From Piedraia hortae CBS 480.64 (Eukaryota), in the NCBI GenBank assembly GCA_010093745.1, contig MU006026.1, forward strand, positions 1-64,000: a stretch of 64,000 nucleotides of DNA. Reading direction: 5' to 3'. Position numbers and translations under genes: made by a program. This document shows positions 7,691-52,600 of the stretch, piece after piece (position 1 is the stretch's first letter; the number at the start of each line of letters is the position of its first letter). The notes under the pieces were generated by a model that made no database searches, had not been told where the DNA came from, and saw nothing but the letters and a program-made list of their open reading frames with translations.

Positions 7691-8748
7691 CACAAACAAA
7701 ATATCTTTTTGTAGCGTACTCACACGCAAACAATAACCATGGCAAGCGAGGGAGTCTCAACGCACTCGGAAGGAGACCGCTTCGACAACGCGGGTTTCGT
7801 CGCCGTGCTAGCCGATGACAATCTAACGAGAAACCCGGAACTTAGAAACCAACGCGTGAGTGAATCGTCTTACGGCAAAGCTAGATAAAAATGTTATTGA
7901 GAAGTATCCGTGCCATACCTCGGCCTGATAACAAAGGCCATACAAAGAAAAGTCCTGTATAGCAAAATGCTCAAAGAGCATAATAAAAAGAACAGAGGGG
8001 CAATGGAGTGATATTTGAAACTGTCTGAACAAAGGAGCTACTTGTATATGAGCTCGCTGCTGAACATCAGACGATATAACTTTGCAAAAACTCAATCTTC
8101 AGAACGATTACGCTACGCAACAACTATCTTCCAACAGAAAATTTTACAAAGTATACTGGCAGCATGGCGCAAGCTCAGCAAGCGCTGGACGAACAACGTG
8201 ACACTATCAAAACGCGGTCTCGCAATTTTGGAAGGGTCGGACATACAATATAAGTTCCAGGTAGCTAGCACGCCTGAAACCAAAGTTGACGACCCCCGTA
8301 CGAGGGCAGAGAACGCGCCAAGCCGACTTCTCCTCATTGGTCAGCGAGTTCGACAAGAGAACGGTAAACAGCTAGTCGCAATTACACGACTATGTTAGGA
8401 GGGAAAACCAGAAAGGCAGAGTGTGAAATATTTTTGGTTGGCAAGGAGGCACCGTGTGCACGATGACCAAGCTTTATGTCGTCGGGTCTGGGGCTCACTT
8501 GTTTGCAAACCTAACGGTTTAACAGATTCTCTTGGCACGTTCTCCTGGCGTGATGTATGGGCCCAGTTTAATGCAAGATCAAGTGAGATTTCATGTTCTT
8601 GTCACAGATAAAGCCCCTGAAACGTCCAGAGTCACATACACCATTTACCAGAGTAAAATCCCCAAACCATGAGTCAATCATAACATCTCCTATCAAATCA
8701 AACTTTTCCTACCCGCATAACCTTTTACCAATTCATCCCCAAGGTACC

Positions 8749-11700
8749 TCACTCCCACGACGACGCAAACACACACTCCTCAAGCAATTCCTGCGCAATC
8801 TGCTCTTTTGTCTTCTTCGTCGTGACAATCTTCTTCGGAGACTTCATCAAGACACCATCACTCCTAGCCTTCTTCTTCACTGGACTTTCCCCCGTTGTCA
8901 TGGGTGAGGACTTCCTCTTCCCCTCTATCGTAGGCGATGCATGCCCCCCGATTCTAGCCGCAAGCTGACTTCCCGAATGAGCACCCTTATTGCGAGGCGA
9001 TGATGCGGGCGTCCGAACCCCATCGCCGTTCCTTGGTGTCGCCGCAGGCGACCCTCCCCCCAACCCCCCAACAATTTCAGGTTTCAAATCCCTAACCCAC
9101 CCCTTCCCATCCACGAAGCTGATCAACTTGCCCAGCAATTCGTTATGCGCAAGCGTCTCTCTACTACCAATGATGATCAGTTTGGCTTTCGCCCTCGTAA
9201 GCGCCACGTTGACCCGTCTCTTATCGTTGAGTAGGTCACCCACAATCCCCGCCTCATTGCTGCGGACGCAGGAGATTAAGAGGACGGGTTTATCCCTCCC
9301 TTGATACCGGTCCGCCGAGTCGATTTCGACTTCCGGGGGGATGGGGGAGGCGCGGAGGAGGGAGAGTTGGGCGCGGTAGAGGGTTAGGATTCCGATTGAT
9401 GTTGGCGGGACGCCGGTTGAGAGGAGGGAGGTTACGAGATGGGTTATGAGGTGGGATTCAAGGGGATTGGTGATGTTGCGGGAGGGGGTGGATATGGTTT
9501 CGTGCGATTTGGGGGTTAGGGGGTCGGTATTTAGGAAGAGGACGTGGGAGGCTGGGTTGAGGGTGGATGTTATCCAGCAGGTGGTGCGGGTGCCGCCGCA
9601 GTGGGGGTCGTGGGTGTGGGCGGAGGAGAGGTTGGGAATATGGAGGGTTTGGGAGGCGACTGAGTCGCTACCACAGCAGAGTTGGCCGTTGTAGATGAGG
9701 TGGTTTGAAAGGCTCATGATGTCTTCGCACATGCGGTATTGTTTTTTGAGGTTGGCGACTGCTTCCGGATGTGAGTCGTTGAGTTGTTTGAAAAGGGATG
9801 ATTCCAGGCCGCCGCTTCGCGCCGTGCGGTTCTGGACGAGAGGGGGGAGTTGGTGGTGGTCGCCTACGAGGACGAACTTGTGGGCTCGGAGAAGAGGGCT
9901 GAGGATGGTGGGTAATGTGATTTGGCTTGCTTCGTCGACGATGCAGATGTCAAAGAAGCGGCGTTTGAAGATGGGGTGGTTTGTACCAAGACATGTTGTT
10001 GCAACGATTCTGCTGTGAGAATATATCTTTTCAATGTCGTCAATGCTGTCTTTCGGCGTGCTGGCCATTTGGCAAAATTTTCGCACTGCGGGATTCACTT
10101 TGACGGGTGTCCCAAGGCGGAGGATGCTCTTTGGCGGTGCGATATCGCGGATTTTGAGGAGGATATTATCGACTGCCGTATGAGTAAATGCGGTGAGTAG
10201 TATAGTCTGATCAGTGGCGAGTAGCGCCCGAATAATGAGTGCAATGGTGGTGGTCTTCCCTGTGCCAGGCATGCCAAGTATGAGGGCATAGTCTTTAGCA
10301 CTGAGGACTTTGCTGACGGCAGCTTCTTGATCCTCGTTCATGTCTCCGAGCTGCGAGGCAGGAAGCTCGGGAATGGAAGACGGATTGAAGCTTGGCTCGG
10401 AATTGAATACGATTTGATCTCGCAACTTATTGCTAACCGGGTGCGAGGACATGAGCATGACGAGGTTATTGCGAATAAGCGCCAATCCATTAGAAAACTC
10501 GTCCTTGTCAACGCGATATCGCACCGGCTCCACATGGTCTGTCTGTTTCTCATTGGGGATGAGAGACATGATGCCGCGAAAGGCGTGGTTCGTAGCATCG
10601 TTGAACCCGCCCATTTTCTCTCGCGAGTCGCCCAGTTCTCGGTCAACCGCCACGGTGATCCGGCGTCTACTGACCGACAACACGTAGCCCGTTGCGAGTG
10701 CCCATTGCCCTCTTTCGGAGGAAACCACCGCAGGTTCCCCTACCACGAGCTGCGAGCCTAGTGTGAAGGGTGTACACCCTTGCTCAGCACGTTTGAACGT
10801 GTACATGAACCTTTGCATCTTCCCTTCCAAAGGAGTGCTCGGTGGAGCAGATGAGGAAAGGTCCGATGCCAGCACAAGATCTCCAAAACACCTTCCCGCC
10901 GCCTCCCGCTGTGAGGATGACATGGTCCAAAGCTCTCTACGGTACCTGTTGAGCTCACTCTCTTCAAACGTCAGTAGCCTGTCCCACTTTGAGAACCAAG
11001 TTTTCAAGACGGCGGCCTTTCCAGCGTCGGTATCCAATGGTAGTTGTCCAAGAACTTCTTTCCAAACCATGCTGTATTTTGTCTTTGAATCATCGACCAT
11101 GCCAGCGGACTCTGCCGTCCCGTTCTCGGCGAGTGCGTGATATGTAAAGCACGAATGTTTTGCATAGCACCGGCTACACTTGTAAGCGTTCTTCAACGGC
11201 GAAGGCAAACCCGACACTTCTGTCAGCTGCGTTGAGGGGACCGCTTTCTCCTTGGCTCCGTCCTCTGGGTGCCTAGCCTTATGGATATACGTCGCCAAGC
11301 GGTTCCGTTGTTGAATCATCTGTCTAATTTCATTGACAGGAGGTGCGATTCGGAACGTGTCTGAACTCTCCATGTAATAAAGCAAGCCAGATTTGACGCT
11401 GACATTGTAGCGGTCGGACAGCAGTAACGTGTACAATGCCGTCTGTGCCTTGTGCGCTGTACTCTGCGTCGTCCTGCCCGTTTTGACTTCCAAAGGCGCC
11501 ACCCATCTTTGAGGTCCTTCCGTTGACGGGTCAGCCACAGCGTTCTGAACGGTAGCATCGATATTCCCCTTTAACCCAAACCGGGGCGACCAGATATGCT
11601 CCTCAATGGCAATCAGCTTGCTGATGCTAACGCAGGTCTTTTGCCCATTTCGATCCTTGACCGTGGCTTTAGATGAAGGGTTCTCGGCGATAAAGGTGCT

Positions 11701-17693: not shown

Positions 17694-17772
17694 TGTAATA
17701 GACTAGCACTGGCAGAGCCAATCAGATACCACCGGAGTTTTAATTCAGAAGCCAAAACATAATTCCGAAGAC

Positions 17773-19314
17773 ATGGTCGGAAACGAATCTGATGCTCTAC
17801 TTGCCATTCTACTTCTTATCCGTGGCAAGTCTGGGCCTCGGCTCGTCTACCATTACCCCGCAGAGCCACAGTTAGCAAAAATAGTCAACCCTCACGGTTC
17901 GAATGGAGCAGCCAAAAAGCCCGAAAATGAAGCCCAACTCAGCTCTAGTGCAGACGACGACTCTTTGAAGCACAAATTTGACAAATTCAATGCCTCTTAC
18001 GAATATCTCCTGGGATACAGCGTCGATACGCTTGAAACCATTCTTTCCCCGGTGGCCTCAAAAACCGATAAGAAGTTCGAACTCAATATCAACGGCATTA
18101 CATTTGTTGGCCACCCTGTGCACGTCCACGAAGATGCTGCAAGAACCAGCAGCATTCCGACACTCGCGGTCTCATCATCGCCACCATCCGGCGAAGCCTC
18201 CATTCTAGCCACATCAGCCGCGACCAGCACATCCACAGGGTCCGTAACGCTCCTTGACGAGCTCTCCATGTTTCACGTCGTCTTTGTCCTCTCAACAAAG
18301 CATCGGTCTCTCGCCTCAAAAGTGTACACCGACCTTGCAAAGCGACTCTCCCGAGCCCTAAACTACTGCCAAGAAACGAGCGGATACATGTCCAGCGAAT
18401 CGCGTAAGCTCCTCGCCCTCCGCAGCAGCGGCAAAGCAACCAACACCCCCATCACCACGCTCACCGCACAACTCACCGAAACCAGCGAGCTTGCATGGGC
18501 ATTCAAAGAAATTCTCACCAAAACTAACCTCAACGAAGTCTCCTCCGGCCTCCGATTCAGCGGCATGGAAATGTCACTAACCCTCACTCCCCCAACAATC
18601 TCCCCACCTGACCCACACTGCGCCCTCCTTCTCCTCACCGAAAAACCCACCCTCCTCTCCCTCCTAACCTCTACCCCCGACCTTGCAGCCTTCATAAAAG
18701 CCCACACACCTACCAAATCCCTCGCGAAACTCTCCGTAAAACTCTCAATTTCCCTCCCCACAATCCAGCAATACGCCACGCACTTGGTAACATGGCGCAA
18801 AGCCGTTCTAATCCCCTCCCCCCTCCACCCGCGAAGCATCTATACCCTCTCCCCGACCGCAACGTGGGAGGGATGCTTCGCCAAAGAGTATGCGAACCGC
18901 TTCCCCGCCCTCCCCTCGCTCCCGCATGTGCTGAAGATGTTGAGTGGGGGGGTGGAGTTTGGGAAGGTTATCCCCTCGAGGGATCATAGGGATGTTTATC
19001 TTGATTTGTTGGGTTTTTTGGTTGGGAAGGGGTTGGTCGTGCAGGTTAGGGTTTTTGGGTGGGTGAAGATTCCGCATGGAGAGGTGGTGAGGGATCCGCT
19101 GGGGTTGGGGAAGGAGGTTTTAGCGAATCTGGCGAGGGAGACGGTGCTGGATGAGGAAGTTCGAAAGAAATTGGGGAGGTTGGTGAGGTATTTTGATGGG
19201 GGACATCCACTGGATGAGATGGCGGCAAGGGAGGGGTTGAAGAAGAGGGCTGTGGAGGAGTGGGTTAGGAATGCCGAGGGTAAGGGGTGGGTTGTGCTGT
19301 TTAGGGCGTTGTGA
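17773..19314 (+). CDS. NPR3: Nitrogen permease regulator 3 (SEACIT/GATOR1 subunit)
   Basis: N-terminal AILLLIRGKSGPRLVYHYP, KKFELNINGITFVGHPVH, MFHVVFVL, YCQETSGYMSSES, HLVTWRKA..PLHPRSIY and a C-terminal FDG.H..DEMA.REGLKK. Confidence 0.88.
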   Translation: MVGNESDALLAILLLIRGKSGPRLVYHYPAEPQLAKIVNPHGSNGAAKKPENEAQLSSSADDDSLKHKFDKFNASYEYLLGYSVDTLETILSPVASKTDKKFELNINGITFVGHPVHVHEDAARTSSIPTLAVSSSPPSGEASILATSAATSTSTGSVTLLDELSMFHVVFVLSTKHRSLASKVYTDLAKRLSRALNYCQETSGYMSSESRKLLALRSSGKATNTPITTLTAQLTETSELAWAFKEILTKTNLNEVSSGLRFSGMEMSLTLTPPTISPPDPHCALLLLTEKPTLLSLLTSTPDLAAFIKAHTPTKSLAKLSVKLSISLPTIQQYATHLVTWRKAVLIPSPLHPRSIYTLSPTATWEGCFAKEYANRFPALPSLPHVLKMLSGGVEFGKVIPSRDHRDVYLDLLGFLVGKGLVVQVRVFGWVKIPHGEVVRDPLGLGKEVLANLARETVLDEEVRKKLGRLVRYFDGGHPLDEMAAREGLKKRAVEEWVRNAEGKGWVVLFRAL

Positions 19315-19725
19315 ACTCTCATCGGGTGAGGGGTGAGTGGTGAGTGGTTCCGTGATGTTGAGATGATTGTAATCGCAAATTAGGTCATGGTATGATTGTT
19401 CTTTGATGCAAATGCTATACTTGGTCATGATTGGTTCTCTAGACTGACCACTGTACGGTGGGTCCTAGCGTTTCACGCCAAGCTGCCCCGCTTTTTTTAG
19501 CACAAATGTCACGAAATTTTCCTGCGCTCACACTCCCTACCATCATCATGATTTTCTGAGATCGTTTCCAGAGCCAAATCTTCATGGAGCTGCCAATGGC
19601 TACATCATGCAGATGTCAATGCTGCAGTTTGATTTTTTGACGCCGGAAATATCTGCTAAGAGTCAGTATGTGCGAAGGTCATGCTCAGCTCTATGATACA
19701 TCGAGCATGACCTCCTGCTATTCGG

Positions 19726-35075: not shown

Positions 35076-36472
35076 CGGGATGGTCGTCGCCGGAGTCAGA
35101 GTCCTCTTCGTCCGATGGTTGAGTGTTGGGCCAAAATCCGGCTGCCGCGCGCTCCTCCAATGGTGTGTGAGGAGAGTGCACCTCGGAGCGCAAGTGGATG
35201 CCAGATGGGGGTGTAGTACGCGAGGGGCGAGCGGTATCCTGTGGGTCCAGACCGCATTTGCCGAGACCACGCGATGACGTGATCTCATCACAGGGGAAAA
35301 CTCCTCTACGAGGCAGAAAACCCTGCGAAGCCTCGGGCGTTCTAACTTCACCGATTTGATTCATCTGACGCAGGGCTCACCGTGCTATCCTTCCCATCTC
35401 GTGCTGTCCACGGGATAGCTATCCACGCCTCGAATGAGCAGAGCTCCCTGTTGGTCGGGGTGCTGCGGTGCGAGACATATTCTGCGAGACGTATTCTGCG
35501 GGGACTTTGGGCGATTATTCCCCGTAAGTTCGAAGAGGCTGGCTGCGATCTTTGTGAACCCGGACACAAAGTGTCGCAAATAGCCTGCATCATGGAGGAA
35601 ACTGCGCACGCAACTCGGTGACTGTTGTGGGGTCTGGTCATTGCATTAATAAATTTGTTGATCGAAGATATTGCTGCGGCCTCGTTCAAAGTGACGTCTG
35701 CTCGTCCCAAGATCGGGAAAGTCTGTCGTCTTTCGTCATGTGTCTTGGTGGGCAGCGGTGATGGGTGGGCACTCGGCAGAATGTTCCCTGTACTGCTGGA
35801 AAGTTGGCTTTTGTAGCTTGACCGTTGTGGTATGCTCATGATAACCCTATCAATTCCTGCCTTAGCTTCTACCAGGGGAATTGCATATTTTTGGCTTAGA
35901 TGGCGAAAGCTTCGAATGTTCGTGTGTTCTTTCCATCTTGTCGTCGGATCCAATCGGTTCGACATTTTGAACCTGGCCCCTTAGCACGAGGGCATTTGAC
36001 GAGCTGGCCGTAGAATTTTGACCACGCTCAGGGTTGTGTCTGGCACAGCAGCGCATCCAAACAGAATCATCAAAGATAATTCTACACAACCCAGGGTTTC
36101 CCAGACTTTCTGAATTCCTCTCCATAAGTATGGCCGCCTCGCCTTCTCTGCCATGGGAGTTATAGTGAGAGTGATAATGCCCACTCTCGTTAGTTATGTT
36201 GTGTTCTGCATGGTAAAGCAGTGCATGCTCGACCCAGGTTACAGTCGGACGCAGGCATTCACTGGAAAATCAGACGTGCCATGACACCTAAGATACATTG
36301 CACCAGAAGCCGTCAGCCAGGGTGGTTACCCAGTTCAAAGGTAGCGAGAAGTGGGCGCGAAGAAAACGAAATTGCGCGGAGAAATACCATAGCTGGGTGT
36401 GTCTTGGCACATGCCTGAGGCACACCACAACCTCACCTCAACTCTCCCAACCCTCCACACAGCCCAACAAGA

Positions 36473-37753
36473 ATGTCCAACAAAGGCCCCTTCCCAACAG
36501 AACCTGAACTCTTCCCCTCAGACCCCCGAATCTGCTACTCGGCCGAAACATCAACGTACAAACTCCGCGCAGCGGACGGGAGCGAATGGGAATGGGTGCC
36601 GAAAGCGGGTAAATGGATGCCAACGGTATGATTGCGAACAACCAACTGCGGAGATGAGCCGAGAGTGGAGAGTTTCATAAAACGGGCTCCTAACTTTGTT
36701 TTCTGCAAAAGACGGATGAGGCCGAAATTGAGAGACAGCGGTCGGTTTACAAGGTTGAGGGCGTGGATGATGATGAGGCGCCCGCGGGGAGAAAGCGGAA
36801 AGCTGTTTCTGTGGGTTTTTATACCGTTCTTGTGTGGGGGAGGGGAGAACGCTAATGTAGGACAGGCTGAAGAGAATGACGGCGAGGCCAAGAAGCCAAA
36901 GGCTGCAGAAAGGGAAAAGGTGAATAAAGCTATCTATGTGACGGGTCTGCCAGACGATGTGGACGCCAATGAGGTGTTTGAGGAGTTTTCCAAGAGTGGC
37001 CTCATTGCTCGCAGCCTGGATACGGACGAACCGCGCATCAAGCTCTACTATGACGACGAGGGACGGTTCAAAGGCGAGGCTTTGATTGGTGAGTCGGCTC
37101 TATCACACTGGGTTGAGCTAACGAGAAAAGTCTTCTTCCGCCCAGAGTCGATCCCACTGGCGATTCAGCGGTTCGACGATACGGATTTCCGTCTGGGACA
37201 GCCGGCGGCCAAGGGTAAGATGAGAGTCACGATGGCCGACCAGAGCTACAAGGCTCACAAAGATCCGGCGGCGGACGTTAAGACAGCACCCGTCAAGCGC
37301 TCCAAGGACAAGCAGCGTGTGATTGACAAGACAAAGGAGATGAACAGCCGTCTCGCAGACTGGAGCGACGAGGACGATAACCCGTCTGCCATGCCCACGT
37401 CATCACGGTGGGATAAGGTCGTCGTGCTGCGACACATGTTCACGCTCGAGGAAATGGAGCAGGACGCAGAGTTCCTGTCGGAGCTCAAGGAAGATCTAAT
37501 GGAGGAGTGCGGGAAGCTGGGCAAGGTTGCCAACGTCACGGTCTTTGACAAGGAGGAGGACGGCGTTGTAACGGTCAGGTTCAGCAAGGCCGAGGCGGCG
37601 CAGGCGTGTGTCGAGCTCATGCATGGCCGGTGGTATGATAAGAGGCAGATCCAGGCGACCATCGCCGACGGAACGGAAAGGTTCCAGAAGACGTGGAAGG
37701 ACAAGGGGAGCGCGGATGAGCGGCTGGAAGCGTTCACACGGGGGTTGGAGTAA
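36473..37753 (+). CDS. CUS2: U2 snRNP-associated RRM/UHM protein Cus2/Tat-SF1 (introns from 36626, ~36810 and 37089-37130)
   Basis: RRM1 AIYVTGLP...PRIKLY...FKGEALIVF, LADWSD, and UHM KVVVLRHMFTLEE...ECGKLG...GVVTVRF...MHGRWYD. GT-AG introns with CTAAC/CTAAT branch sites join the N-terminal exons. Confidence 0.88.
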
Positions 37754-37852
37754 AATGCGGGGTATGCAGGGTCCATAGCAACGGAACGATTCCGCATAAG
37801 CGTAAGCGTTCGCCGGTACCAGAAAGTGATTTCACCAACTGTAGAACATACA

Positions 37853-39829
37853 ATGAACGGACCGCCACGAGTGAGGAACAAGGCGCCGGCGCCGGTGCAA
37901 ATCAGCGCGGAGCAGCTGCTGCGCGAGGCGGTAGACCGCCAGGAACCGGCCTTAACCGCCCCGGCGCAGCGGTTTGCGGATCTCGAGGAGCTGCACGAGT
38001 ACCAAGCACGGAAGCGCAAAGAGTTTGAGAGCCATGTCTGTCGCAACCGGGTGAACATCGGCAACTGGACACGTTATGCGACGTGGGAATGGGAGCAGAA
38101 GAACTTCGCGCACGCCCGCAGCGTTTTTGAGCGCGCGCTGGACGTGGACGGCGCAAATGTCTCGCTCTGGCTGCGGTACATCGATACGGAGCTCAAGGGC
38201 GGCAACATCCAGCATGCGCGCAACCTCCTGGATCGCGCGACTACCATCCTCCCACGCGTGGACAAGTTGTGGTACAAATACGTTTATGTGCAGGAGATGC
38301 TGGGCGAGGTTGCGGCGGCGCGGGAGGTGTTTGAGCGATGGATGGGCTGGGAGCCGGATGAGGCCGCCTGGGCGGCGTATATCAAGATGGAGAAGCGGTA
38401 CGGCGAGCTGGACCGCGCGCGCAACATCTTCGAGAGGTTCACCGTAGTCCATCCTGAGGCGAGGAACTGGATCAAATGGGCGCGGTTTGAAGAAGAAAAC
38501 GGGACGGCAGACGCCGTACGTGAGGTGTTCGGCGCTGGCATCGCAACATTAGGCGAGGAATTCATGGACGAGAAACTCTTCATCGCATACGCCGCGTTCG
38601 AAGCGCGACTATACGAGTACGAGCGGGCACGAGAAATCTACAAATTCGCACTCAACCGCATGCCGCGGAGCAAGAGCACCCTGCTACACACCCAATACAC
38701 CAAATTCGAGAAACAATTCGGCGACGAGGCGGGCGTGGAAGATGTAGTCCTCGCGAAACGACGTCTCCTCTACGAAGACGAAGTCTCCTCTAACCCCGAA
38801 AACTACGACGCCTGGTTCGATTTAGCCAAGCTAGAAGAGGCCTCCCCATCGTCGACCGAAACCCAAGTCCGAGAAGTGTACGAACGCGCGGTAGCAAATG
38901 TACCCAAAACCAACGAAAAGCGACACTGGAGACGGTACATCTACCTCTGGCTCTTCTATGCGATATGGGAAGAACTCACCTGCAACAATCCCACACGTGC
39001 CCTAAAAATCTACACAACCGCCCTCTCCCAGCTTCCCAAAACGTTCACCTCAACAAAACTCCTCACCCTCAAATCGCACTGCCACGCGCGTCAGCACGAC
39101 CCTACCTCCGCGCGAGCGACCCTCTCGGAGGCTATATCCTCCTTCCCCGAAAAGACCTCCCTCCGCCGGGCTTTAATCACCCTCGAACGCAAACTCTTCG
39201 AATACACCCACTGCCGGGAGGCATTCACAAACTGGCTAACCCACACCCCCACAAACTCCACAGCATACGCCTCCTTCGCGGAGCTAGAAGCCCAGCTCGG
39301 CGAAGTCGACCGTGCGCGGGCGATTTACGAAATCGGGATTTCCATTCCTGACCTAGATATGCCGGAGGTGCTGTGGAAGAGGTATATTGACTTCGAATGC
39401 GAGGTTTCGTTACCCACCCATCCGGAGCGGGCGAGGGGGCTGTACACCCGTCTTCTGGAGAAGACGCATCATCCGAAGGTTTGGATTGCGTTTGCGATGT
39501 TTGAGGTTTCGGTTGGGGAGGTTGATGCTGCGCGGGGGGTTTTTGGGAGGGGGAAGGAGAGGTTAGAGAGGGATGGGGAGGTGGACGAGAGGGTTATGCT
39601 TCTTCAGGCATGGCTGGAGTTTGAGAACGTGCATGGAAGTGAGGAGGAGAAGGGAAAAGTGGAGAGGGAACAGCCGGTTAGGGTTAAGAAGAGGAGGAGG
39701 TTGGAGGATGGGTCGTTTGAGGAGTATATGGATTGGGCGTTCCCCGAGGCGGAGGGGAAGGAGAAGAAGGGCCTGAGTAAACTGTTGGCGTTGACGGAAA
39801 AGTGGAAGAGGGGGGAGAGTGATCCGTAA
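37853..39829 (+). CDS. CLF1: Pre-mRNA splicing factor Clf1/Syf3 (crooked neck, HAT repeats)
   Basis: [72 protein letters not shown] and [12 protein letters not shown]. Confidence 0.96.
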
Positions 39830-39887
39830 GTGTGGTTGTATCTGTGTACGCATAACTGCATGAACCTCCCATTGTTAGAGCGTGGAT

Positions 39888-40496
39888 TTATTTGAATTTA
39901 GGCAACCCCTTCCTCCTCCTCCTCCCCCCCTCCTCCTTATCCTTATCCCTCTCCTTCTCCTTCTTCTCCCCAAACGGAAACTTCCCCACCCTCTTATCCA
40001 TCCCTGTCCTCTTCGAAACATGACCCTTATCCCACCCAAACAGCAGAATCCAAACCCCAAACGCGAAGCAACAAGCATTAAGCACCAACCCCATCGTAAA
40101 CCCAAAATTCATTCTCGCGACGAATTGCATGTACAAGTAAAACGTACTTGAAAAGAAGTACGCCGTCGTCAGGAGAGCGGTAGGGTAGCTGATTCCGTTG
40201 CCTCCGGTGGTGCGGGGAGGGGTCCCTACATCAGTTGCTGCAACGGATTGAGAAGTCCGCACGGGTGGTTGGTCCCCTTGGTCAGTTAGGATCCCGGAGA
40301 CGATGATGCTCATTCCTGCGAGGGCGGCGAGGGTTAGACCTAGACTGCGGGAGAGGTAGACTTCGAGGTCCGTGGAGCGGCGCGGTTCCAGGGCTAAGAG
40401 GGTTGTGATCAACCGAGGGGTTATGAGCGTGGGGAGGGATTGGAGGGTCAGCCATGCTGCGGTTGTGAGGTGGTAGATTTGGGGTGCGGTGGGCAT
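39888..40496 (-). CDS. Conserved-type fungal membrane protein (about 4 TM segments)
   Basis: 202-aa ORF with four hydrophobic segments and a charged tail (HVSKRTGMDKRVGKFPF). Convergent with CLF1. Confidence 0.75.
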   Translation of the reverse strand: MPTAPQIYHLTTAAWLTLQSLPTLITPRLITTLLALEPRRSTDLEVYLSRSLGLTLAALAGMSIIVSGILTDQGDQPPVRTSQSVAATDVGTPPRTTGGNGISYPTALLTTAYFFSSTFYLYMQFVARMNFGFTMGLVLNACCFAFGVWILLFGWDKGHVSKRTGMDKRVGKFPFGEKKEKERDKDKEEGGRRRRKGLPKFK

Positions 40497-40648
40497 GTTT
40501 GGTGAGTTGGAGGGATGTTGTTTGCGGAGGCGGATGAAAGGGTTACGTCATGGAGCTGTCAATGCCAAGAAGGACACGGGATAGAGTTTGCGAATAGCTT
40601 GGATAATGCTTCTTGTCATCGATCAACTCTGTATTACTCCTACACGCT

Positions 40649-42718: not shown

Positions 42719-42749
<31 letters not shown>

Positions 42750-43276: not shown

Positions 43277-43368
43277 CCCATAAAATGTCAATAGCAGCAA
43301 TACGCTCCTCTATCAGTTGGACTAACGAACAAGGAACCAGCCTACCATTAAACCCCCATTAAACCCAC

Positions 43369-46300
43369 TCAAACATAGCTCGTCCTCCTCCCTGTATCAA
43401 GTCAGCTTTCCACCCAGAGTTATCAACCACATCACTCACCAGCCCTCTCCTTAGTAGCACCCCCCTTCCCCTTCTCATTGAATTCCCTCTCCTCCCTCCT
43501 CAACCTCCTCCTCTCCGCCCTCCTCTCCTCCTCCTCTTTCGCAGAGCGTCTCGCCTCCTTCTCCGCCCGTTCCGCCCGTTCCGCCCTCCTAGCTCTCCGT
43601 TCCTGCCTCTCCCTTTCCTCCGCAGCAGCAAGTTCCGCCGCTTTACGCGCCCTTCTCTCCGCGCGTCTCGCTTCCCTAGCCTCGGGAGTCTCGACCGTCT
43701 CCGCAAGAGGCGAAGTTAACTTCCTCTCCTCCCTCCTAAGTCTCTTTCCCTCATCATCCCTCCTAACACGGTTCTCACTCTCATGCCGAGAGGGCGCCGG
43801 TCTTCCAAACCCAAAAATAGTAGACATCAACCCTCCCCCTCTCTTCGCAGAAGAGGTCGTAGACCTCCGCTGGAGAGCAGGCCGGAGGTCGAATTCGAGG
43901 TTGGGGGGTTCCTGGGGTGGTGATTTTAGCGCGCCGTGCATTTTTGCGCTTGGACGCTTGTTTCGGCGAGGGTGGTCGACGAATACGAGGTCGTCGTCTT
44001 CTGTTTCTGGAGGGGGTGCCTTTTCCCGTCGGGATTTGGTAGGGATTCCGGCGAGTTTTGCCGCTTTTTCGGGGATATCTCCCGTTGGAGGGACGACAGT
44101 GGAGTGTCTTCGTGACGGTCTTTCGCGCTCGCGCGTGGATTTTGAACGTGAGGGTGTTCCACCGCCGATTCCGAAGAAAGAAAAGCCCATCCCGCGTGTT
44201 GTGCTTCCTGCCCGACCGTATCGTTCAGAGCCAGAGGAAACGTCGTTTGCTCTGCGTGAGGATTTGCTTCGGGTTAGACTTGGTCGGGCTTCCCTAGCGG
44301 GGGACGTTACGGGTGGTGCTTCTTTGACGCGTGATTCACGTCGGCTGCTGCTGCTACCACCACCTGTCTTTGGGGGAGGGGAGGTTGCACCCCAAAATGC
44401 CCATGAGCTGGACCCGGGCTCGCGAACTACCTTTGGGCGTTCTTTTTTCTTTTCTTTAGGTAGAGGTGCAGCCTCGACGGGTTTGGATCGCTCGCGTTTT
44501 TTCTCTTTGGGAGGAGCTTCGACTTCGGCGACTTTGGAGGCTCTTTTGGAGCTTGATTTGTGTTTTTCGGACCTTTTAGATGGCTTAGAAGCCTCGTCTA
44601 CGACGGCTGCAACCCCGGGGGTTGGTGGCGGTGCCGCCTCTTCCAAGGGAAACTCGCCTGGTAGGGGTGAGCGTGGAGGTGCCGGTGGAGGTGGAGGTTC
44701 TGCTGCCTCGACTACCTTTTTGGACTTGGACTTTTTCTCCACCACTGGCTCCATTGGAGTTGAGGGTGCGGAAGCAGCTTCGGCGGCTTTTTTGGCCTTT
44801 TTCTCCTCTTCCTTGCTTTTGGTCTTCTTGTCCTCTTCTTTGATCTTGACTTTCTTCTCCCCTTCATTTATTTTCACCTTCTTGTCTTCCTTCTTTTCCT
44901 CCTCCTTCATTTTCACCTTCTTGTCGTCCTCTTTGCTCTTGGCTTTCTTGTCATCCTCTTTGGATTTGGCCTTCTTCTCCTCTTCTTTAGGCTTGACATT
45001 AATCGCCTCGATGTTAGCAGGTGCAGAAAAGTCCAACATATCCTCCTCGGCCTGAACGCCAGCAAGAATATCAGGTACCACCTCTTCCTTTGGCGTAGCT
45101 GTCTTGGACCCACGGCCCAAAAAGCCCCATCCTGCAGATTCAGTCTTTTTAGCTGGCTCTGTAACGGACTTGGTCTTGGTTTCCTTGGTACCGGCCTTCT
45201 TGATGGTGGTCTTTTTCTTCGCTGCGGAAGTACCCACACCTAGGAAGTCAGTGTGGCTTTCGTCCAGAGCTGCGCCAAAGGCGTCTTCGTCGGCCTTTTG
45301 CTTGTCGGCTGCTTCTTTTGCTGCCTTTTCCGCGGCTTCTTTTTCGGCTTTTTCTTTCTCTGCCTTCTCGGCCGCCTCTTTCTCTACCTTTTCAGCGGCT
45401 TCCTTCTCTGCCTTTTCCGCTGCTTCCTTGTCAGCCGCATCTTTCGCTGCCTTCTTGGCTGCTTCCTTTTCCTTTTTCTCCGCCGCTCTGCTCTTGGTCT
45501 TGTCAGCGGATTTGCCAACGCCAAGGCTGCTCCACATGCTGGACATTATTCCCGACGAGGTCGGTTCTTCCTTGACCGGCTCAGCAGATGTGGGGTCGTC
45601 TATCAGACTTTCAACAGTCCATTCTTCTTCCTCGCCGATCGCCTTTTTGCCTATTATCCTCTCCTTCTTACCCACTGTGCCAAACTTGTTCCTAGGAATA
45701 GTCAGCAGAGCTTGTATTTACCCTAAGTACGCACCAGGTGGTGTTGTTGTCCTGGTCTTGGACCAAGGCCGGCTGCACCGATGCCTCTGCATCGCCACCG
45801 AGGACCTCGATAATGCCTCTGGACTTCTTGTTGTCCTTTGGCCGCGTGCCAGTTTCCCATGCCGACCCATCGTCCATCGAGGCGGGGTTGATTGCTAGCT
45901 TTTCTTCCGATTTTGACGGAAGCAGTGCGGGTTCGTCTCTACTCTTGCCTTTTTTGCCCTTGCCGTTGGCTTTCTTGCCCCTGTACCCTGGTTAGCTGTC
46001 TTTGCGGACTGTTTGAAGAGCATACCAAGTTTCGTTCGGCCAGTTATTATCGTCTGCAGAAGTGCCTGCGGCTGTGTTATCAAGTGGATTGGCATCACCC
46101 CAGGAAAAGCTGCTTTTGTTAGTTTTCGACTTTGAAGCCTCGGTCAGACTTGCCTGCCTGCTCCAAACTCTCCTCCCATGCCGCCCAGACCGGGAAGTAT
46201 TCCCTTTGCATCCTTGCCAGTTTTGTCCTTGCCCCTGCGTAGATGTCAGTATAATTGTCTATATTGGCCGGGCACGCTTACAACGTTTTGGCAAAGTCTT

Positions 46301-47343
46301 CGCCAATGGGGTCTGCACCGCCTATATTGAAACCGAAGCCATCGCCAGCCGTGGAACCAAAGTTAAAGTTGTTGCTTGCTTGGGTCTCGTTGTTTTCGCC
46401 TGAACCCCATCCGCTGCCGAGATTGTCATGATCGAAGTTGAACGAATCTAAAGTTTCTCCTGCATTTGTGCCTGTGCCGCCCGGTGGTGCCTTGTCGTTG
46501 GGCTTGCTGTCTAAGTGGTCGACTGGGTGGGATGTCGGGGCGGGATCATTCTGGCGAATGTCAGTTTGGCAGTGCTCTCTATGATTACTCGACCGACCTT
46601 GTTCTTTCTCTTCTTTTTCTTGCCTGTGGCTGTATCGAATTAGGCTGAGAAACCTTGAACGAACACAATTAAACTTACCACCTAGTCCCAAGAATGCATC
46701 GTCCTCGGGCTGATTAGTCGGCTCGGTTGTGCTTACATCCTACCGATTGTCAGTACACACACATCAAACCGACCAAGATTGAAATTACATTTTCCGCCTC
46801 GGCAGTTTCGTTCTCGTCCCAATTCGCAAGAGGATCAAACTCCTCATCTTTTTTCTCATCATCATCGGGGTCCCACTGAGCTTTCTTCGACTTCTTCTTC
46901 TTTTTTGCCCCACCAGCATTCGGCGGGGGAGAGGGGTCATTCCCTCCACCGCCGGGCGGATCCCCCGCACCCCCAGCAGCATCGCCTCCTCCAGTGCCCT
47001 TTTCTCCCTCGCCGTCATCACCTCTATCGTCGTTTTTCTTCTTGTTCCCCCCTCCTCCATTTCCCTGATTTTGCCCGCCTCTTTTAGCCTTCCCACCTCC
47101 CTTACCTTTTCGTTCCCTAACCCTCACATCCTCCCAGTCGATCTTCGGATCATAAGGCGGGGGCGCATCATCGCAGACGAGTCCATAAGCCGGAGGCGCA
47201 TCATCGCAACACTCATACCCTCCGTCATAATTCCCCCGCGACACCTCGCCGACGACATCGGACTTAGCACGGCGGTCGAAACTGAGCCCTCCTCCTCCTC
47301 TCAAACCACCCCCCGCACCCCAAAGGCTCGTAAGAATCGCCAT
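43369..47343 (-). CDS. Large multi-exon Lys/Glu/Pro/Arg-rich low-complexity protein (start codon uncertain)
   Basis: A 747-aa ORF (43432-45675) plus upstream exons joined by short GT-AG introns with CTGAC/CTAAT branch sites (46.2-46.8 kb). The last intron, 43439-43392, gives ...ERAGRRTSYV*. Contains KEAAEKAE and KEEEKK repeats and a SWAFWGA motif. Confidence 0.7.
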
Positions 47344-48370
47344 TGTGTCGTAGAGCAAATGGCAAAAGAGTCATTTGTTTTTGAAAAGCGCACGGGTGCG
47401 GAAAACGGTTGCGCGTGGGGTCTTGGCTGTGGCGTTGTGGCGCAGGCGAGAAGTTGCCGAGGGTAGCACCTTGGGCTTACCTTTTAGTTCAGTCTTTGGG
47501 GAATTTTTTTTTCGATGGAGGGTTTGTGGAGCTAATTTTTTTTTGGGCTTCACCGCCTATAATGTGGGTTTGGGATACGCACGATGCAGGAGGGTATGTA
47601 TGTATGGTGTGCAGGGTTATGTAAGGGTGGGGGAATTTCTTTGGGGTCTTGCTTGGTTGGTTTGAGGGCTTGGGTAATGGGTGGGAGGTGATTTTGGTTT
47701 AGATCGAGGCGTGGGACACTGGTTGGGGAGAGATTTTCTTGCCTGTTTCACACCTGATTTTTGCGGTCTTGTTAATTGACCTACTCGGGAGTTTTACCAG
47801 TTTTCTGGAAGACTCGAAACCAAATTTCTCAGTTATTCGGAGAAAATACTTCTGTGAATAATCTATGCAATTGCAATGGTGACATGCTTAGGGGAAGTAC
47901 TCTCCTTCCACCATGCCGAACTCACACCCAGCCTCTACACTCCCAATATAGCTTCCCTCGCCACAAGTCCCTCAACATCTGACAGTGGCCAAACGAGATA
48001 TCACAAGGGTAACCCCCACTCCACCGACGCCATTTACGCCTTCTGCAGCCTGACTGGGGCCGACCTCAACATGACTAATATGGTAGCCCCTAGCGGACAG
48101 ACGGACGACTTCGGGGAAGAAGTGTGTTCACATTCACATTCGCAGAATGCCAGCAGTTCATTCAGGACGCTTAATACAGACAATTCTACCCTGGTGCCCG
48201 GGGTGGAGAAGTTGGACGAGCTGAGTCGTGATATGGTCATAGGCAGGTGTAAGGTGGGTAGGTTAACCACTGACAAGAAACCTACTCGTTGCCTACAGAG
48301 TTGTGATTGTTGCCGTCCAATAACCCCACGTGACAGCGCGCTGGTGATGAAAATTTCCGAAACGCCCCCG

Positions 48371-49509: not shown

Positions 49510-49652
49510 TAGATTAGTCATGTGTAAGTTTTGTAACAATGTAATGATTAACGCACGACCTAATTGGGTAAGCGGCGTTCCCGTCGACGCGACGTCGCCG
49601 ACAGCTGCCCACCGCTCTCTGTCCTGTCACCGCACACTGCACTGCCACCGAC

Positions 49653-52600
49653 ATGGCAGCCCCGGGCAATCCGCCCGTTTTGTTCCGCGAAACCTGTCTG
49701 CCTTCGCCAGACTCGGCCAATCCCATGCTTTACATCGATGCTGGCGGCGGAAAGTCGCGTTTTTCGCCATTCCGACGCGCCGGCGACAAGCGAAGCTTTG
49801 AAGAGATTAGCGAATGCGATGAGGATGGCTATGCGCGCGCGCGGCTGGGGAGCAACGGCGGTGTTTTCTTCCGCGCCGCTGACCGCACGCCACGGAGCTT
49901 TGCCTGGCGCGTGCTGGAAGATGGAAAGGTGCTGGAGCTTCAACCGGTTGATCTCATGGTGCACAAGAAACCAGATGGCCGGCGACTGACATTCCGCATT
50001 GATTTTGGCCAGACGATCCTGAACGACGGTGTCGCGTTTGCCGATCCCGAAGCCCACGACGCGCTCGAGGTTTTCGTGCTAACAGCCAAGCGTGAAGTCT
50101 GCACCGTGACGCTGCGCAAAGATGTTCTGACCCGCACCTCCGTCCCTGCCGATTTCAATTCACAGTCTTGCGTTAAACGGTTCGGCGGCAGCTTCCTCAG
50201 CATGCGCCAGCCGTTTCGCTTCCGCGCCGCCAGCAACGTTGAACTCATGGCCAGCTCTGCTGACGGTGGTCTTGTTCTGATGCACCGCGACCGCAACGAG
50301 AGCGGCGCGCAGTGGCAGGAGACGTACTTCAACGAACGCGGCTGGAGCGGTGCGTTGACGCTGAAGAAACTAAACTTCTTCGCCACTCAGGTGACAGTCC
50401 GCTGGGGAGGTGTGGATCTAGATCCCAATGCCATAGCGGACATGGTGCGCAGCCCGGATGCGAACTACATTTGGACGCTTAGCGTCGATTATTATCTGCG
50501 GGCATGGAACACGCAGACGGGGAAGGTTGATAAACGGCTGGACATTGCCTATGACGACCAGGATCGAGTTCTTGATAGCATTTTGATGGTGGCTGAACAG
50601 GATCAGCTGCTGCAGCTGATTCCCCGTTCGGAAACTGAATACCTTTTGGTGGTGCACCTGCCCCGAGAAAGGTGCTTCAAAGCGTATCGTGTTTTGAAGC
50701 AATTTACCTCCGTGGATGCAACGGACCTGCGAATTGAACTGGTTCGGATCAGGACACCCTATCTACCGGCTGCTGATAAACTCGTCAATGGCAACGTTTG
50801 GCAGGTGGAAAAGTTCCATCTAGATATGGCTGATCTGGGGAATTCGCGGCTCTGGGTGCGTGCGAGGAGCGGCCCGATATGCCATACGTTTACGATTAAT
50901 CTTGATATGAGGGATTTAACCGCCGTTGCGTGTCACAGGGATTCGGGCTGGACGCGGGTTCACTCTGGTTTCCTGACTCCGGAAGAGTTGAAGGCCATGG
51001 CTGATTTTCCCGGTGACCTTGATCCGGTGGATGATTCTGCTCTTACGCCGACTGAGAGTTGGTTGTCGTTTTTGTTCTACCCCGGCAGGTTTTCTACGGC
51101 TGGTATCATGGCGGCCTTGCACATGTACCGCAAGGGGCGGGGGCTGTCTGTGGCTTCTCTGCGTCCTGGAGAGCCGCTGCAAGAGCAGGTAGTGGCTGCT
51201 ATCACGGCGAAACAGTCTGTTCGCCGAATGTCCAACGATTGGCCTGATTATATGCAGCACAAACTGGACCTCCAGACGCAGTGGACCACGTTTTACAGTC
51301 TGCTCTCTCATCTCCATTCGCGTAGACACGAGTCGTTGGGTTTTGCCTATGACGATGTTGAAGGGTTGGCATGGACCGTGTATGCAGACTGCGTTGCACC
51401 CGTCAGAGCCTGCAGCGAGCTGGAGATGTGTTGTTTCAACACGCATCTGCTGGAAGCTGAGACGGGTAACCCGTCTTGGGCCTTTAGCCGCAAGATATAT
51501 TCGTCCCCCGGAAGCGTGGAAGTGTCCCGCATCATCGATGCAGCCAGAGAGTTGCGGCTGTCGTTCTCTTACACGGCTCGCAGCAAGTTGGATGAAATCG
51601 TCGCCAGAGATGCGCTTGACGTCCCGGAAAATGGAGAGACTTTGACTGCGGACATCGCAGCGGCGTGCGATTTGAGACGTGATGTCAGCGATGAGGACAT
51701 TGATGAATTGGTTGCCAGGTTCAGTCCCCTCGGCGGTGTTGGTGCTCTGAACGATGAGATGGTGCTCAATGTGTTGGAATGGTTAGAGAACGAATGGCAG
51801 ACGGCTGGTCCCGGTAAGGACGTCCATCTCACCCGTCCGGGGATCGATGCAACCGTCGAAATTGCCCGCGAGACACTGCAGCGGGCGAAAGCTGTGCTTT
51901 TGGACATTTGTGCTCTCTTGGCGTGTGTGGTGGGAATTTTCGAGCTCCAAGATCTCGATCCAAGCTTTAATGCGGATAGGATGTATTTATCCGCCTTGGA
52001 CCATTCGAAGCGGGTTGATATCCTGCTTTGGCTGGTTGATAACACCGTGGCGGGAGGGATTACATTGCTGGAGACTATATTCCTCAACGAATGGCAATGT
52101 CGCTCAGAGTCGTCGATGCCATGGCAGTTGACTCTCTCCAGCAAATCCTGGCTCGGGGATGCTGCCTTTCGCGAGTCTGGCTGGGAGGGATTCACCGCAC
52201 ATATCCTTTCCCATTTGTTGAAACACCAAGAACTTGATCTAGCCGTCGATTTCCTGAAATTCACCCCCGAAGAACCCACCACACCCTGGCTCCTCTACCT
52301 CCAGGGACGGCTCTATCTATCCCAAGGCTCCTACAACGAAGCAGCCGCCCTCTTCACCGAAGCCGCACCAGACCTCAGCACACCCACAGCCCACAGTCCC
52401 GATACCTCCCACCTCCTCTCCGCCTCAGAATCAATCCATTTCTTCTCCGGCCTCGCCCAATACTACCAACACATCTCGACCCTCTACGAATCTCTCTCCC
52501 TCTACAGCTACGTCGCAACCTTCTCAACCCTCGCCCTAAGCCATACTGACCCCCTCCCCCCCAACTTCTCCGCCTCCATGTCCGCCCTCGACAGGACAAA

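What the first reader, a model, noticed from the sequence alone, without database searches (positions are those of the whole stretch)
18400..19340. Recurrent sharp C/A-rich to G/T-rich strand-skew switches inside genes
Seen: on the + strand, several hundred bases of extreme C/A bias flip within tens of bases to extreme G/T bias. Switches occur at about 9300 (DNA2), 18925 (NPR3), 36560 (CUS2 5'), 39350 (CLF1), 40170 (membrane gene), 43880 and 47370 (large gene) and 52835 (NUP120). Polarity is always C then G regardless of gene strand, and it reshapes both synonymous codons and amino acids (T/P/L/S then G/V/E/R). Six switches sit about 300-550 nt before a stop codon. Four are in the gene bordering a decayed accessory block. 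Sedolisin, ODC1, DAK1 and RAD51 lack it. Established: this polarity is what leading-strand G+T enrichment gives at a replication origin. Inference: these are either fossil marks of fixed origins or boundary elements, or selected mRNA fold-back/R-loop terminator modules embedded in coding sequence.
Basis: partly seen in the sequence, partly recalled or inferred. Interest (0 to 1): 0.75.

Follow-up and report, generated by a model that had tools for sequence, protein, structure and literature searches.

The report
Gene-end strand-skew islands in a fungus
In this compact fungal genome the last kilobase of many ordinary genes is written first almost without G and then almost without C, an unusually sharp and strong form of a known but unexplained fungal gene-end bias and not a mark of replication origins.

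Summary
The window has 8 C-to-G skew flips (change in GC skew 0.64-1.20 over +-300 nt; the largest in 100 shuffles was 0.51). The skew is strongest at fourfold-degenerate sites, so it is not a protein-composition effect.

Three claims need correction:
- "Same polarity on either gene strand" is trivial, because a C-then-G pattern is its own reverse complement.
- Equally sharp G-to-C flips (11) exist, mostly at gene ends.
- DAK1 has a milder island.

Six flips lie 318-588 nt before a stop. Two lie at 5' ends (CUS2, and the start codon of the large gene). The G/T-rich arm runs about 120-170 nt past the stop of three genes. The two arms have mirror-image composition.

- Origin marks: not supported.
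- Selected RNA fold-back: not supported.
- Fossil marks: argued against by polymorphism in a related fungus.
- R-loop terminator: still open.

The same gene-end rise occurs more weakly in 86 ORFs of other fungi. I read it as an extreme variant of the fungal 5'-C/3'-G gene skew (McLean & Tirosh 2011), probably a transcription-linked one-strand mutation bias; the mechanism is unproven. This scan flagged the same thing before, on other pieces of this genome and in another fungus.

The parts
17773..19314 (+). NPR3 coding sequence (513 aa), intron-free here; it contains the island of the finding
   Evidence: Pfam NPR3 1.4e-67 and HTH_NPRL3 1.8e-08; translation; an identical 513-aa protein is in the collection
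18100..18923 (+). C/A-rich arm of the NPR3 island, strengthening towards the flip
   Evidence: GC skew falls from -0.30 to -0.66 in 200-nt windows. 4-fold sites: A21 C58 G8 T9
18924..19436 (+). G/T-rich arm of the NPR3 island: the last 390 nt of the CDS plus about 120 nt of 3' flank
   Evidence: GC skew +0.39 to +0.71. 4-fold sites: A5 C3 G36 T13. 3' flank, 120 nt: GC skew +0.46. Outer G->C flip at 19436
8601..9255 (-). DNA2 G/T-rich arm (sense = minus strand): last ~500-590 nt of the CDS plus ~150 nt of 3' flank
   Evidence: 3' flank GC skew +0.62
9256..10000 (-). DNA2 C/A-rich arm (sense)
   Evidence: 4-fold GC skew -0.92 over 450 nt
38800..39277 (+). CLF1 C/A-rich arm
39278..39835 (+). CLF1 G/T-rich arm, ending where the G arm of the convergent gene begins
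   Evidence: 4-fold GC skew +0.65. G->C flip of -1.24 at 39835; the two stops are 59 nt apart
39836..40116 (-). G/T-rich arm (sense) of the small minus-strand gene convergent with CLF1
40117..40608 (-). C/A-rich arm (sense) of the same small gene
43304..43846 (-). G-rich arm (sense) at the 3' end of the large, intron-rich minus-strand gene; includes the intron at 43391-43438, which is itself G-skewed
   Evidence: Introns from RNA contigs. This intron has GC skew +0.55, against -0.09 to +0.11 in five mid-gene introns
43847..44250 (-). C-rich arm (sense) of the large gene's 3' island
52192..52839 (+). NUP120 C/A-rich arm
   Evidence: 4-fold GC skew -0.83; outer flip at 52192
52840..53369 (+). 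NUP120 G/T-rich arm: last 362 nt of the CDS plus ~170 nt of flank
   Evidence: 4-fold GC skew +0.76
36266..36866 (+). 5'-end flip at CUS2: G-poor promoter/5'UTR, then a G-rich start of the gene; not intragenic
   Evidence: Flip refined to 36566; first intron at 36625-36710 from RNA contigs
47021..47644 (-). Flip at the start codon of the large minus-strand gene, in the region shared with divergent RAD51; not intragenic
   Evidence: Flip refined to 47321; introns show the minus strand

Best explanation
These are gene-end-anchored strand-composition islands. They are an extreme, sharply bounded form of the known tendency of fungal genes to be C-biased upstream and G-biased at the 3' end on the coding strand.

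Anatomy. In the sense direction each island reads as follows:
- about 450-900 nt that are C/A-rich;
- a flip within 60-120 nt;
- then G/T-rich sequence through the stop codon, ending about 120-170 nt beyond it, presumably at the transcript end.

Proposed mechanism (inferred, not shown). The cause acts on DNA, not on the protein or on translation. The same one-strand process acts on opposite strands on the two sides of the flip, and the G-rich strand keeps losing C. I propose it is coupled to transcription of the gene's last kilobase. Sense transcription near its termination zone exposes the sense strand. Antisense transcription entering from downstream exposes the other strand further in. G-rich RNA favours R-loops, so each arm reinforces itself and the border stays sharp.

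Shown: the anatomy, the silent-site signal, the mirror symmetry, the gene-end anchoring, and the recurrence in other fungi. Inferred: the link to transcription, the role of R-loops, and antisense transcription.
For: 1. Silent and non-coding sites carry the skew.
- Pooled 4-fold sites of 6 genes: C arm A.21 C.59 G.10 T.10 (n=480); G arm A.10 C.11 G.55 T.24 (n=378); background A.19 C.31 G.30 T.20.
- 3' flanks of 120 nt have GC skew +0.46 (NPR3), +0.62 (DNA2) and +0.20 (NUP120). One intron inside a G arm has +0.55.

2. Mirror symmetry. The G arm matches the complemented C arm (chi-square p=0.61).

3. Gene-end anchoring.
- Six of 8 flips lie 318-588 nt before a stop.
- Over the 12 window ORFs of at least 300 codons, GC3 skew is +0.52, +0.54, +0.36 and +0.27 in the last 400 nt, then -0.19 to -0.39. 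The rise is positive in 11 of 12 and above 0.8 in 6 of 12.
- G->C flips sit at 19436, 53369, 8601, 39835 and 43304, just past gene ends.

4. The same trend occurs in other fungi, more weakly.
- 86 ORFs from metagenome loci: GC3 skew +0.36 and +0.12 in the last 200 nt; positive in 64 of 86; above 0.8 in 4 of 86.
- In 27 of 28 distinct NPR3 loci the strongest flip lies 128-239 nt before the stop, but 383-805 nt from the orthologous codon.
- Flips of at least 0.8 occur at 5.3 up and 5.0 down per 64 kb in 360 kb of such loci.

5. The skew is maintained, not decaying. In 7 haplotypes of another fungus (96-98.5% identical), derived changes per site on the G-rich strand were C 20/189 against G 37/799 (p=0.003). 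Changes raising and lowering the skew were 48 and 52.

6. The lineage shows a directional push on amino acids in the G arm. Of the 27 places where this protein departs from the consensus of 20 orthologues, 18 raise G-C and 6 lower it; L>V occurs 7 times.

7. McLean & Tirosh 2011 (PMC3315797; parts 1-3 of 4 read) describe the averaged pattern in about 60 fungi, with 4-fold sites and UTRs included.
Against: - No direct evidence for R-loops or antisense RNA. The only RNA data are unstranded contigs.
- A full-length sense mRNA is transcribed equally along the gene, yet the 5' 2-3 kb of DNA2 and NUP120 are unskewed. Transcription alone does not explain why only the last kilobase is affected.
- The polymorphism test comes from another fungus, rests on about 100 changes polarised by the minor allele, and weakens once CpG sites are removed (10/116 vs 33/724, p=0.07).
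- The test cannot separate mutation bias from selection or biased gene conversion.
- In the C arm the amino-acid push is no stronger than in the rest of the protein (13 raising, 17 lowering).
- Part of the NPR3 signal in other fungi is protein composition: all 20 orthologues have the same sign at the amino-acid level.
- Unlike the published pattern, the T/A skew flips here as well.
Confidence: 0.6

Rival explanations
1. Fixed replication origins, or their fossil marks: leading-strand G+T enrichment diverging from an origin inside the gene.
For: The polarity (C then G) is what a bidirectional origin would give (established knowledge). The two arms have mirror-image composition.
Against: - The arms span only 300-900 nt, not a replicon.
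- There are 8 flips in 64 kb.
- Six of 8 are tied to stop codons, and 27 of 28 NPR3 loci have the flip 128-239 nt before the stop.
- G arms end just past stops.
- Sharp flips of the opposite sign are as common (11 in the window; 28 vs 30 in other loci).
- Fluxes are balanced, so the marks are not fossil.
Confidence: 0.03
2. A selected mRNA (or single-strand DNA) fold-back in which the C/A-rich arm pairs with the G/U-rich arm.
For: Complementary arm composition. NPR3 alone folds better than arm-wise shuffles (z=-2.65).
Against: - Six of 7 islands are within -1.4 to +0.8 SD of arm-wise shuffles, and most are no more stable than whole-sequence shuffles.
- No inverted-repeat or blastn similarity between the islands.
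- The skew continues into the 3' flank and an intron.
Confidence: 0.04
3. Selection on the transcript or on transcription itself: C-avoidance or G-rich pause/terminator sequence at 3' ends (the adaptive hypothesis of McLean & Tirosh; GC-skewed R-loop terminators as in human genes). The C arm would serve as a terminator for antisense or read-through transcription.
For: - G arms end near transcript ends.
- Islands are strong where the downstream neighbour is convergent or far: DNA2, NPR3, CLF1, the small gene, NUP120 and the large gene.
- Islands are absent in the 4 genes followed within 80-235 nt by a co-directional start codon: sedolisin, ODC1, CUS2 and RAD51. This is a post hoc split of 10 genes.
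- Balanced fluxes fit maintenance.
Against: - G-runs are exactly as expected from composition (235 vs 235.2). Canonical G-quadruplex motifs are fewer than expected (3 vs 14.3).
- No shared motif at the flips.
- The exact mirror symmetry of silent-site composition is more simply explained by a single strand-blind process.
- Function is untested.
Confidence: 0.17
4. Cryptic divergent transcription starts at the flip point inside the gene, each arm being the G+T-enriched non-template strand of a short transcript.
For: - The same polarity occurs at the window's two divergent 5' regions, 36566 and 47321.
- The centre is sharp, the C arm fades outward in NPR3, DNA2 and CLF1, and the G arm stops at the gene end.
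Against: - RNA contig depth does not rise downstream of the flips in CLF1 or NUP120 (contig depth is a poor measure).
- No promoter-like motif at the flips.
- Promoters of the close tandem genes (NPR3, CLF1, NUP120) show no such flip.
Confidence: 0.1
5. GRINS-like elements: skewed tracts created or spread by gene conversion or recombination.
For: Correlated GC and TA skews, abrupt sign changes, the strongest signal at third codon positions and altered amino-acid use all match the description of GRINS (PMC8256042, section 5). The authors mention their presence in eukaryotes (section 11).
Against: - No island resembles any other sequence in the window (blastn, E<=1e-3, no non-self hit), so the defining repeat criterion is not met within 64 kb.
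- The islands are anchored to gene ends in single-copy housekeeping genes.
Confidence: 0.06

Closest known systems
Opposite GC skews at the 5' and 3' ends of fungal genes (McLean & Tirosh 2011, BMC Genomics, PMC3315797; parts 1-3 of 4 read)
   Same: - The coding strand is C-biased upstream and G-biased at the 3' end.
- 4-fold sites and UTRs are affected and amino-acid use is altered.
- It is seen in most fungi, and the cause is unknown.
[quoted passage not shown]
   Different: - They describe a genome-averaged, gradual ramp of modest size with a flat A/T skew.
- Here individual genes flip by about 1.0 in GC skew within 60-120 nt.
- The T/A skew flips too.
- The C-rich part is a local arm next to the flip and not the whole upstream gene.
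- The G arm is 320-590 nt long, against about 100-200 nt in the other fungi sampled here.
[quoted passage not shown] 2021, PNAS, PMC8256042; abstract and sections 5, 10, 11 read)
   Same: Intense, correlated GC and TA skews that change sign abruptly inside working genes, are strongest at third codon positions, and shift Gly/Val/Trp against Pro/Thr/His/Gln.
   Different: GRINS are defined as duplicated regions (over 500 bp and over 80% identical) in bacterial gene clusters, and are linked to gene conversion. These islands are single-copy within the window and anchored to gene 3' ends.
GC-skewed, R-loop-prone 3' ends of human genes (Ginno et al. 2013, Genome Res, PMC3787257; only the search listing and the start of the abstract seen)
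   Same: Positive GC skew of the non-template strand at gene 3' ends, linked there to R-loops and termination.
   Different: Here the skew lies mostly inside the coding sequence and is preceded by a mirror-image C-rich arm. R-loops were not tested.
Replication-origin skew jumps (bacterial oriC; GC-skew flips at yeast centromeres cited by McLean & Tirosh as Koren et al. 2010, not read)
   Same: C-to-G polarity on a given strand.
   Different: Those run at replicon scale and are independent of gene ends. These are sub-kilobase and tied to stop codons.

Membership tests
Fungal gene-anchored GC skew (McLean & Tirosh 2011) | Coding strand C-biased upstream and G-biased towards the stop | tested here: met
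   11 of 12 window ORFs of at least 300 codons; GC3 skew +0.52 to +0.27 in the last 400 nt and -0.19 to -0.39 before that
Fungal gene-anchored GC skew (McLean & Tirosh 2011) | Present at fourfold-degenerate sites and reaching into the 3' UTR | tested here: met
   3' flanks +0.46, +0.62 and +0.20
Fungal gene-anchored GC skew (McLean & Tirosh 2011) | A/T skew roughly uniform along the gene | tested here: not met
   TA3 skew is +0.34/+0.14/+0.36/+0.34 in the last 400 nt and -0.23 to +0.04 upstream
Fungal gene-anchored GC skew (McLean & Tirosh 2011) | Gradual (linear) ramp of modest amplitude | tested here: not met
   Flips of 0.87-1.20 complete within 60-120 nt
GRINS | Region over 500 bp with intense, correlated GC and TA skews, strongest at codon position 3 | tested here: met
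GRINS | Duplicated: over 80% identical to another region of the same locus or genome | tested here: not met
   No non-self blastn hit for any of the 8 islands against the 64-kb window. The rest of the genome could not be searched
Replication-origin skew switch | C-to-G polarity on the given strand | tested here: met
   Uninformative about gene strand, because the pattern is its own reverse complement
Replication-origin skew switch | Skew persists over the replicon and is independent of gene boundaries | tested here: not met
   Arms are 300-900 nt; 6 of 8 flips lie 318-588 nt before stops; G arms end 120-170 nt past stops
Replication-origin skew switch | Initiation of DNA synthesis at the site | not testable with these tools
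   Needs ORC/MCM ChIP or Okazaki-fragment sequencing
R-loop-prone GC-skewed terminator | G-rich non-template strand at the 3' end of the transcription unit | tested here: met
R-loop-prone GC-skewed terminator | RNA:DNA hybrid formation and an effect on termination | not testable with these tools
   Needs DRIP-type mapping and read-through assays. G-runs are not enriched beyond composition

The most novel reading that the evidence does not exclude
The islands are self-reinforcing, transcription-coupled mutation domains. In the last kilobase of a gene, sense and incoming antisense transcription each strip C from their own non-template strand. G-rich RNA forms R-loops, which expose that strand further, so two opposite domains grow and meet at a sharp wall. 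As a by-product they act as back-to-back termination zones for sense and antisense RNA in a very compact genome. They fail to form where a co-directional gene starts within about 250 nt of the stop.
Probability: 0.2. Interest if true: 0.75.

Novelty: new variant of a known kind. Interest (0 to 1): 0.55.

Why it matters
The cause of the widespread 5'-C/3'-G skew of fungal genes has been open since 2011, with mutation and selection both still possible. This fungus shows the effect far more strongly:
- silent sites reach 55-59% of a single base;
- the borders are sharp;
- conserved proteins are measurably pushed towards Gly/Val.

That strength makes it a natural system in which a few experiments could decide the question: stranded RNA, TSS and 3'-end mapping, hybrid mapping, and mutation-accumulation lines.

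It also has practical uses. Skew flips in fungal DNA should not be read as origins. Such islands open spurious reading frames on the opposite strand, which can mislead gene finders.

Tried and rejected
- Whole genome: none is held for this window, so no genome-wide statistics were possible.
A smaller version gave no consistent stabilisation.
- Repeats between islands: none.
- Shared motif at the flip points: none seen.
- G-quadruplex selection: G-runs equal the expectation and canonical motifs fall below it.
- Sequencing runs: two holders were listed, and none is on record as RNA ('no RNA holder listed'). One of them (X2) nevertheless carries spliced contigs and a poly(A) tail. Being unstranded contigs, it shows neither transcript starts, nor strand, nor antisense RNA. 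No sequence differences between X1 and X2 were listed, so this organism gave no polymorphism data.
- Meiotic double-strand-break model (3' tails exposed by resection): considered and rejected on polarity. It predicts G-then-C around the break, and the C arms of NUP120, NPR3, DNA2 and CLF1 have no matching G arm on their outer side. This is inference.
- Look-alike stretches in other scanned genomes: none.
- Literature: five searches found no paper on sharp two-armed intragenic skew islands in fungal nuclear genes within the held library. PMC13075793 was checked by term search and is irrelevant.
- The 'decayed accessory block' association was not evaluated.
Full report
WHAT IS THERE

The window is fungal. 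Pfam identifies DNA2, a sedolisin, a mitochondrial carrier, NPR3, DAK1, an RRM protein, CLF1, RAD51, NUP120 and a VPS9-ankyrin protein. The nearest NPR3 proteins are 34-40% identical and come from Dothideomycetes.

At the finding's coordinates the plus strand has GC skew -0.42 to -0.66 from 18400 to 18900, and +0.39 to +0.71 from 18900 to 19400. The flip falls at 18923-18925.

In 100 shuffles of the window the largest flip was 0.51. DNA contigs of one run and spliced RNA contigs of another span the flips with no differences listed, so these are not assembly artefacts, and the skewed sequence is in mature RNA.

IT IS NOT A PROTEIN-COMPOSITION EFFECT

In all six intragenic cases the skew is strongest at codon position 3 and at 4-fold sites. 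Pooled over the six genes, 4-fold sites give:

| Region | A | C | G | T | n |
|---|---|---|---|---|---|
| C arm | .21 | .59 | .10 | .10 | 480 |
| G arm | .10 | .11 | .55 | .24 | 378 |
| Unskewed coding sequence | .19 | .31 | .30 | .20 | 2424 |

The G arm is statistically the complement of the C arm (p=0.61).

The skew continues into the 3' flank: +0.46 for NPR3, +0.62 for DNA2 and +0.20 for NUP120 over 120 nt. It also appears in the one intron that lies in a G arm (+0.55, against -0.09 to +0.11 for five mid-gene introns of the same gene).

CORRECTIONS TO THE OBSERVATION

1. A C-then-G pattern is its own reverse complement. 'Same polarity whatever the gene strand' follows automatically and says nothing about strand independence.
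2. There are 11 G-to-C flips of at least 0.6, several as sharp as the C-to-G ones. Most sit just past gene ends: 19436, 53369, 8601, 43304, and 39835 between two convergent stops only 59 nt apart.
3. RNA contigs show that the 'large gene' runs on the minus strand with eight introns. The flips at 36573 and 47344 lie at 5' ends: about 20 nt before the CUS2 start codon, and at the start codon of the large gene.
4. DAK1 has a milder island. Sedolisin and the carrier have only a trace, and RAD51 has none.
5. ORF 12303-13829 is probably the first exon of DNA2.

ANCHORING TO GENE ENDS

Six flips lie 318-588 nt before an in-frame stop. For the four long ORFs this is the last 10-26% of the reading frame, with a joint chance of about 0.001 (my arithmetic).

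Over the 12 window ORFs of at least 300 codons, GC3 skew counted back from the stop in 100-nt bins is +0.52, +0.54, +0.36 and +0.27, then -0.19, -0.26, -0.39 and -0.31. The T/A skew flips with it. The rise is positive in 11 of 12 ORFs and exceeds 0.8 in 6.

OTHER FUNGI

A scan of metagenome contigs with an NPR3 alignment returned 76 loci.
- At the codon orthologous to the flip, the change in GC skew is positive in 65 of 65 loci, but its mean is only 0.27 and it exceeds 0.6 in one.
- In 27 of 28 distinct loci with a complete 3' end, the strongest flip lies 128-239 nt before the stop, while its distance to the orthologous codon ranges from 383 to 805 nt.
- Part of this is protein composition, because the C-terminal domain is rich in Gly, Glu and Arg. 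All 20 aligned orthologues have the same sign at the amino-acid level. Even so, 4-fold sites after the flip are G-skewed in 16 of 20 loci.
- In 86 long ORFs of these loci, GC3 skew is +0.36 and +0.12 in the last 200 nt and near zero before that. It is positive in 64 of 86 and above 0.8 in 4 of 86.
- Flips of at least 0.8 occur at 5.3 (up) and 5.0 (down) per 64 kb, in loci chosen around NPR3.

So the phenomenon is general, and this genome is at its extreme. At the amino-acid level this NPR3 is the most skewed of 21 in both arms. In the G arm, 18 of its 27 departures from the orthologue consensus raise G-C and 6 lower it. In the C arm the push (13 raising, 17 lowering) is no stronger than in the rest of the protein.

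IS IT A FOSSIL?

Seven haplotypes of one metagenome fungus (96-98.5% identical) carry islands of the same kind (flip 1.25-1.27). One lies in a gene convergent with NPR3, 262 nt before its stop. I took minor alleles as derived and expressed everything on the G-rich strand of the skewed domains.
- Changes per site were C 20/189 against G 37/799 (p=0.003). With a stricter domain cut-off they were 14/92 against 29/597 (p=0.0006).
- C>T was the main class.
- Changes raising and lowering the skew were balanced (48 vs 52). If per-site rates were equal, only 33% of amino/keto changes should go towards the skew; 38 of 83 did (p=0.012).
- Without CpG sites the contrast weakens: 10/116 against 33/724, p=0.07.

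The skew is therefore being maintained, by mutation bias or by selection. This comes from another fungus and rests on few events.

- Origins. The scale, density, gene-end anchoring and the equally frequent opposite flips all speak against them.
- Fold-back. Against shuffles that keep each arm's composition, folding energies gave z = +0.78, -2.65, -1.40, -0.25, -0.60, -0.89 and +0.70. Only NPR3 stands out.
- G-quadruplex or G-cluster selection. G-runs match expectation (235 vs 235.2), and canonical motifs are fewer than expected (3 vs 14.3).
- No motif marks the flips, and no island resembles another.
- The R-loop terminator idea is neither shown nor excluded.

A POST HOC REGULARITY

- The six strong islands belong to genes whose downstream neighbour is either convergent (NPR3, CLF1, the small gene) or, on a less complete reading of the flanks, lacks a nearby co-directional start (DNA2, NUP120, the large gene).
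- The four genes without an island (sedolisin, the carrier, CUS2, RAD51) are each followed by a co-directional start codon 80-235 nt after their stop.
- That is ten genes, split after looking at the data. It needs a genome-wide test.

MOST LIKELY MECHANISM

Mirror symmetry at silent sites points to one strand-blind DNA process acting on opposite strands either side of the flip. The outer end of the G arm tracks the end of the transcription unit. The G-rich strand loses C faster. The classical source of G+T enrichment is exposure of the non-template strand.

I therefore favour a transcription-coupled, self-reinforcing one-strand mutation bias. Sense transcription would act on the G arm, and antisense transcription entering from downstream would act on the C arm. 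I hold the overall reading with confidence 0.6, and the specific R-loop feedback version with about 0.2. Everything beyond the anatomy is inference.

The main unexplained point is why the upstream two thirds of long genes, which are transcribed equally, stay unskewed.

RELATION TO WHAT IS KNOWN

The averaged C-to-G trend along fungal genes, including 4-fold sites, UTRs and amino-acid effects, was described by McLean & Tirosh (PMC3315797). They left mutation and selection both open. The present case differs in four ways:
- sharp per-gene borders;
- amplitude;
- a local C arm;
- a flipping T/A skew.

GRINS (PMC8256042) share the composition signature but are defined as repeats, which these are not.

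Earlier notes of this scan reported the same islands on other pieces of this genome (e1-7586333, e1-7586335) and gene-end-anchored flips in another fungus (e1-7555460). My tests agree with them, and add:
- the reverse-complement argument;
- the mirror-composition test;
- the arm-wise fold control;
- the metagene comparison;
- the flux test;
- the neighbour rule.

VERDICT

This is a real and strong feature. It is not an origin mark. It is a new variant of a known, unexplained kind.

Noticed in passing
window 17693-17773; 37753-37853; 49509-49650; 39829-39888: Extremely tight gene spacing. There are 80, 100 and 141 nt between a stop and the next co-directional start codon, and 59 nt between two convergent stops. 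Promoters and 3' UTRs must therefore lie inside neighbouring coding sequence. A poly(A) tail is seen 46 nt after the CUS2 stop, at 37799.
   Followed up: partly
window 12240-12360: ORF 12303-13829 (minus strand, 508 aa, no Pfam hit) is probably the first exon of DNA2, joined across a short intron near 12295-12303. That would give a DNA2 of about 1690 aa.
   Followed up: partly
window 46110-46153: One of the eight introns of the large minus-strand gene has GC..AG ends instead of GT..AG (RNA contig joint listed as CT..GC on the plus strand).
   Followed up: no
window 53850-53891, 39901-39972, 42709-42763: Short stretches where both DNA and RNA contigs break or continue into other sequence (loose ends on both sides, and 'skipped repeats'). 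This suggests small dispersed repeats, one of them transcribed.
   Followed up: no
window 18363-18839 (-), 52375-53046 (-), 38794-39351 (+): Long spurious ORFs open on the opposite strand or in other frames inside the skewed arms, because stop codons become rare there. This is a trap for gene finders.
   Followed up: no
L016/L012/L015/L031/L032/L034/L035, unskewed columns: Outside the skew domains the seven haplotypes still show more C>T (89) than G>A (50) on the plus strand, which is the sense strand of NPR3. This is a weaker strand asymmetry that I did not analyse by gene orientation.
   Followed up: no
window 43300-47340: The large minus-strand gene has by far the highest RNA contig depth in the laid stretch (1200-4000, against 200-460 for its neighbours). 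Its sense strand is purine-rich and it encodes Lys/Glu/Arg-rich low-complexity protein. No Pfam family matched.
   Followed up: no
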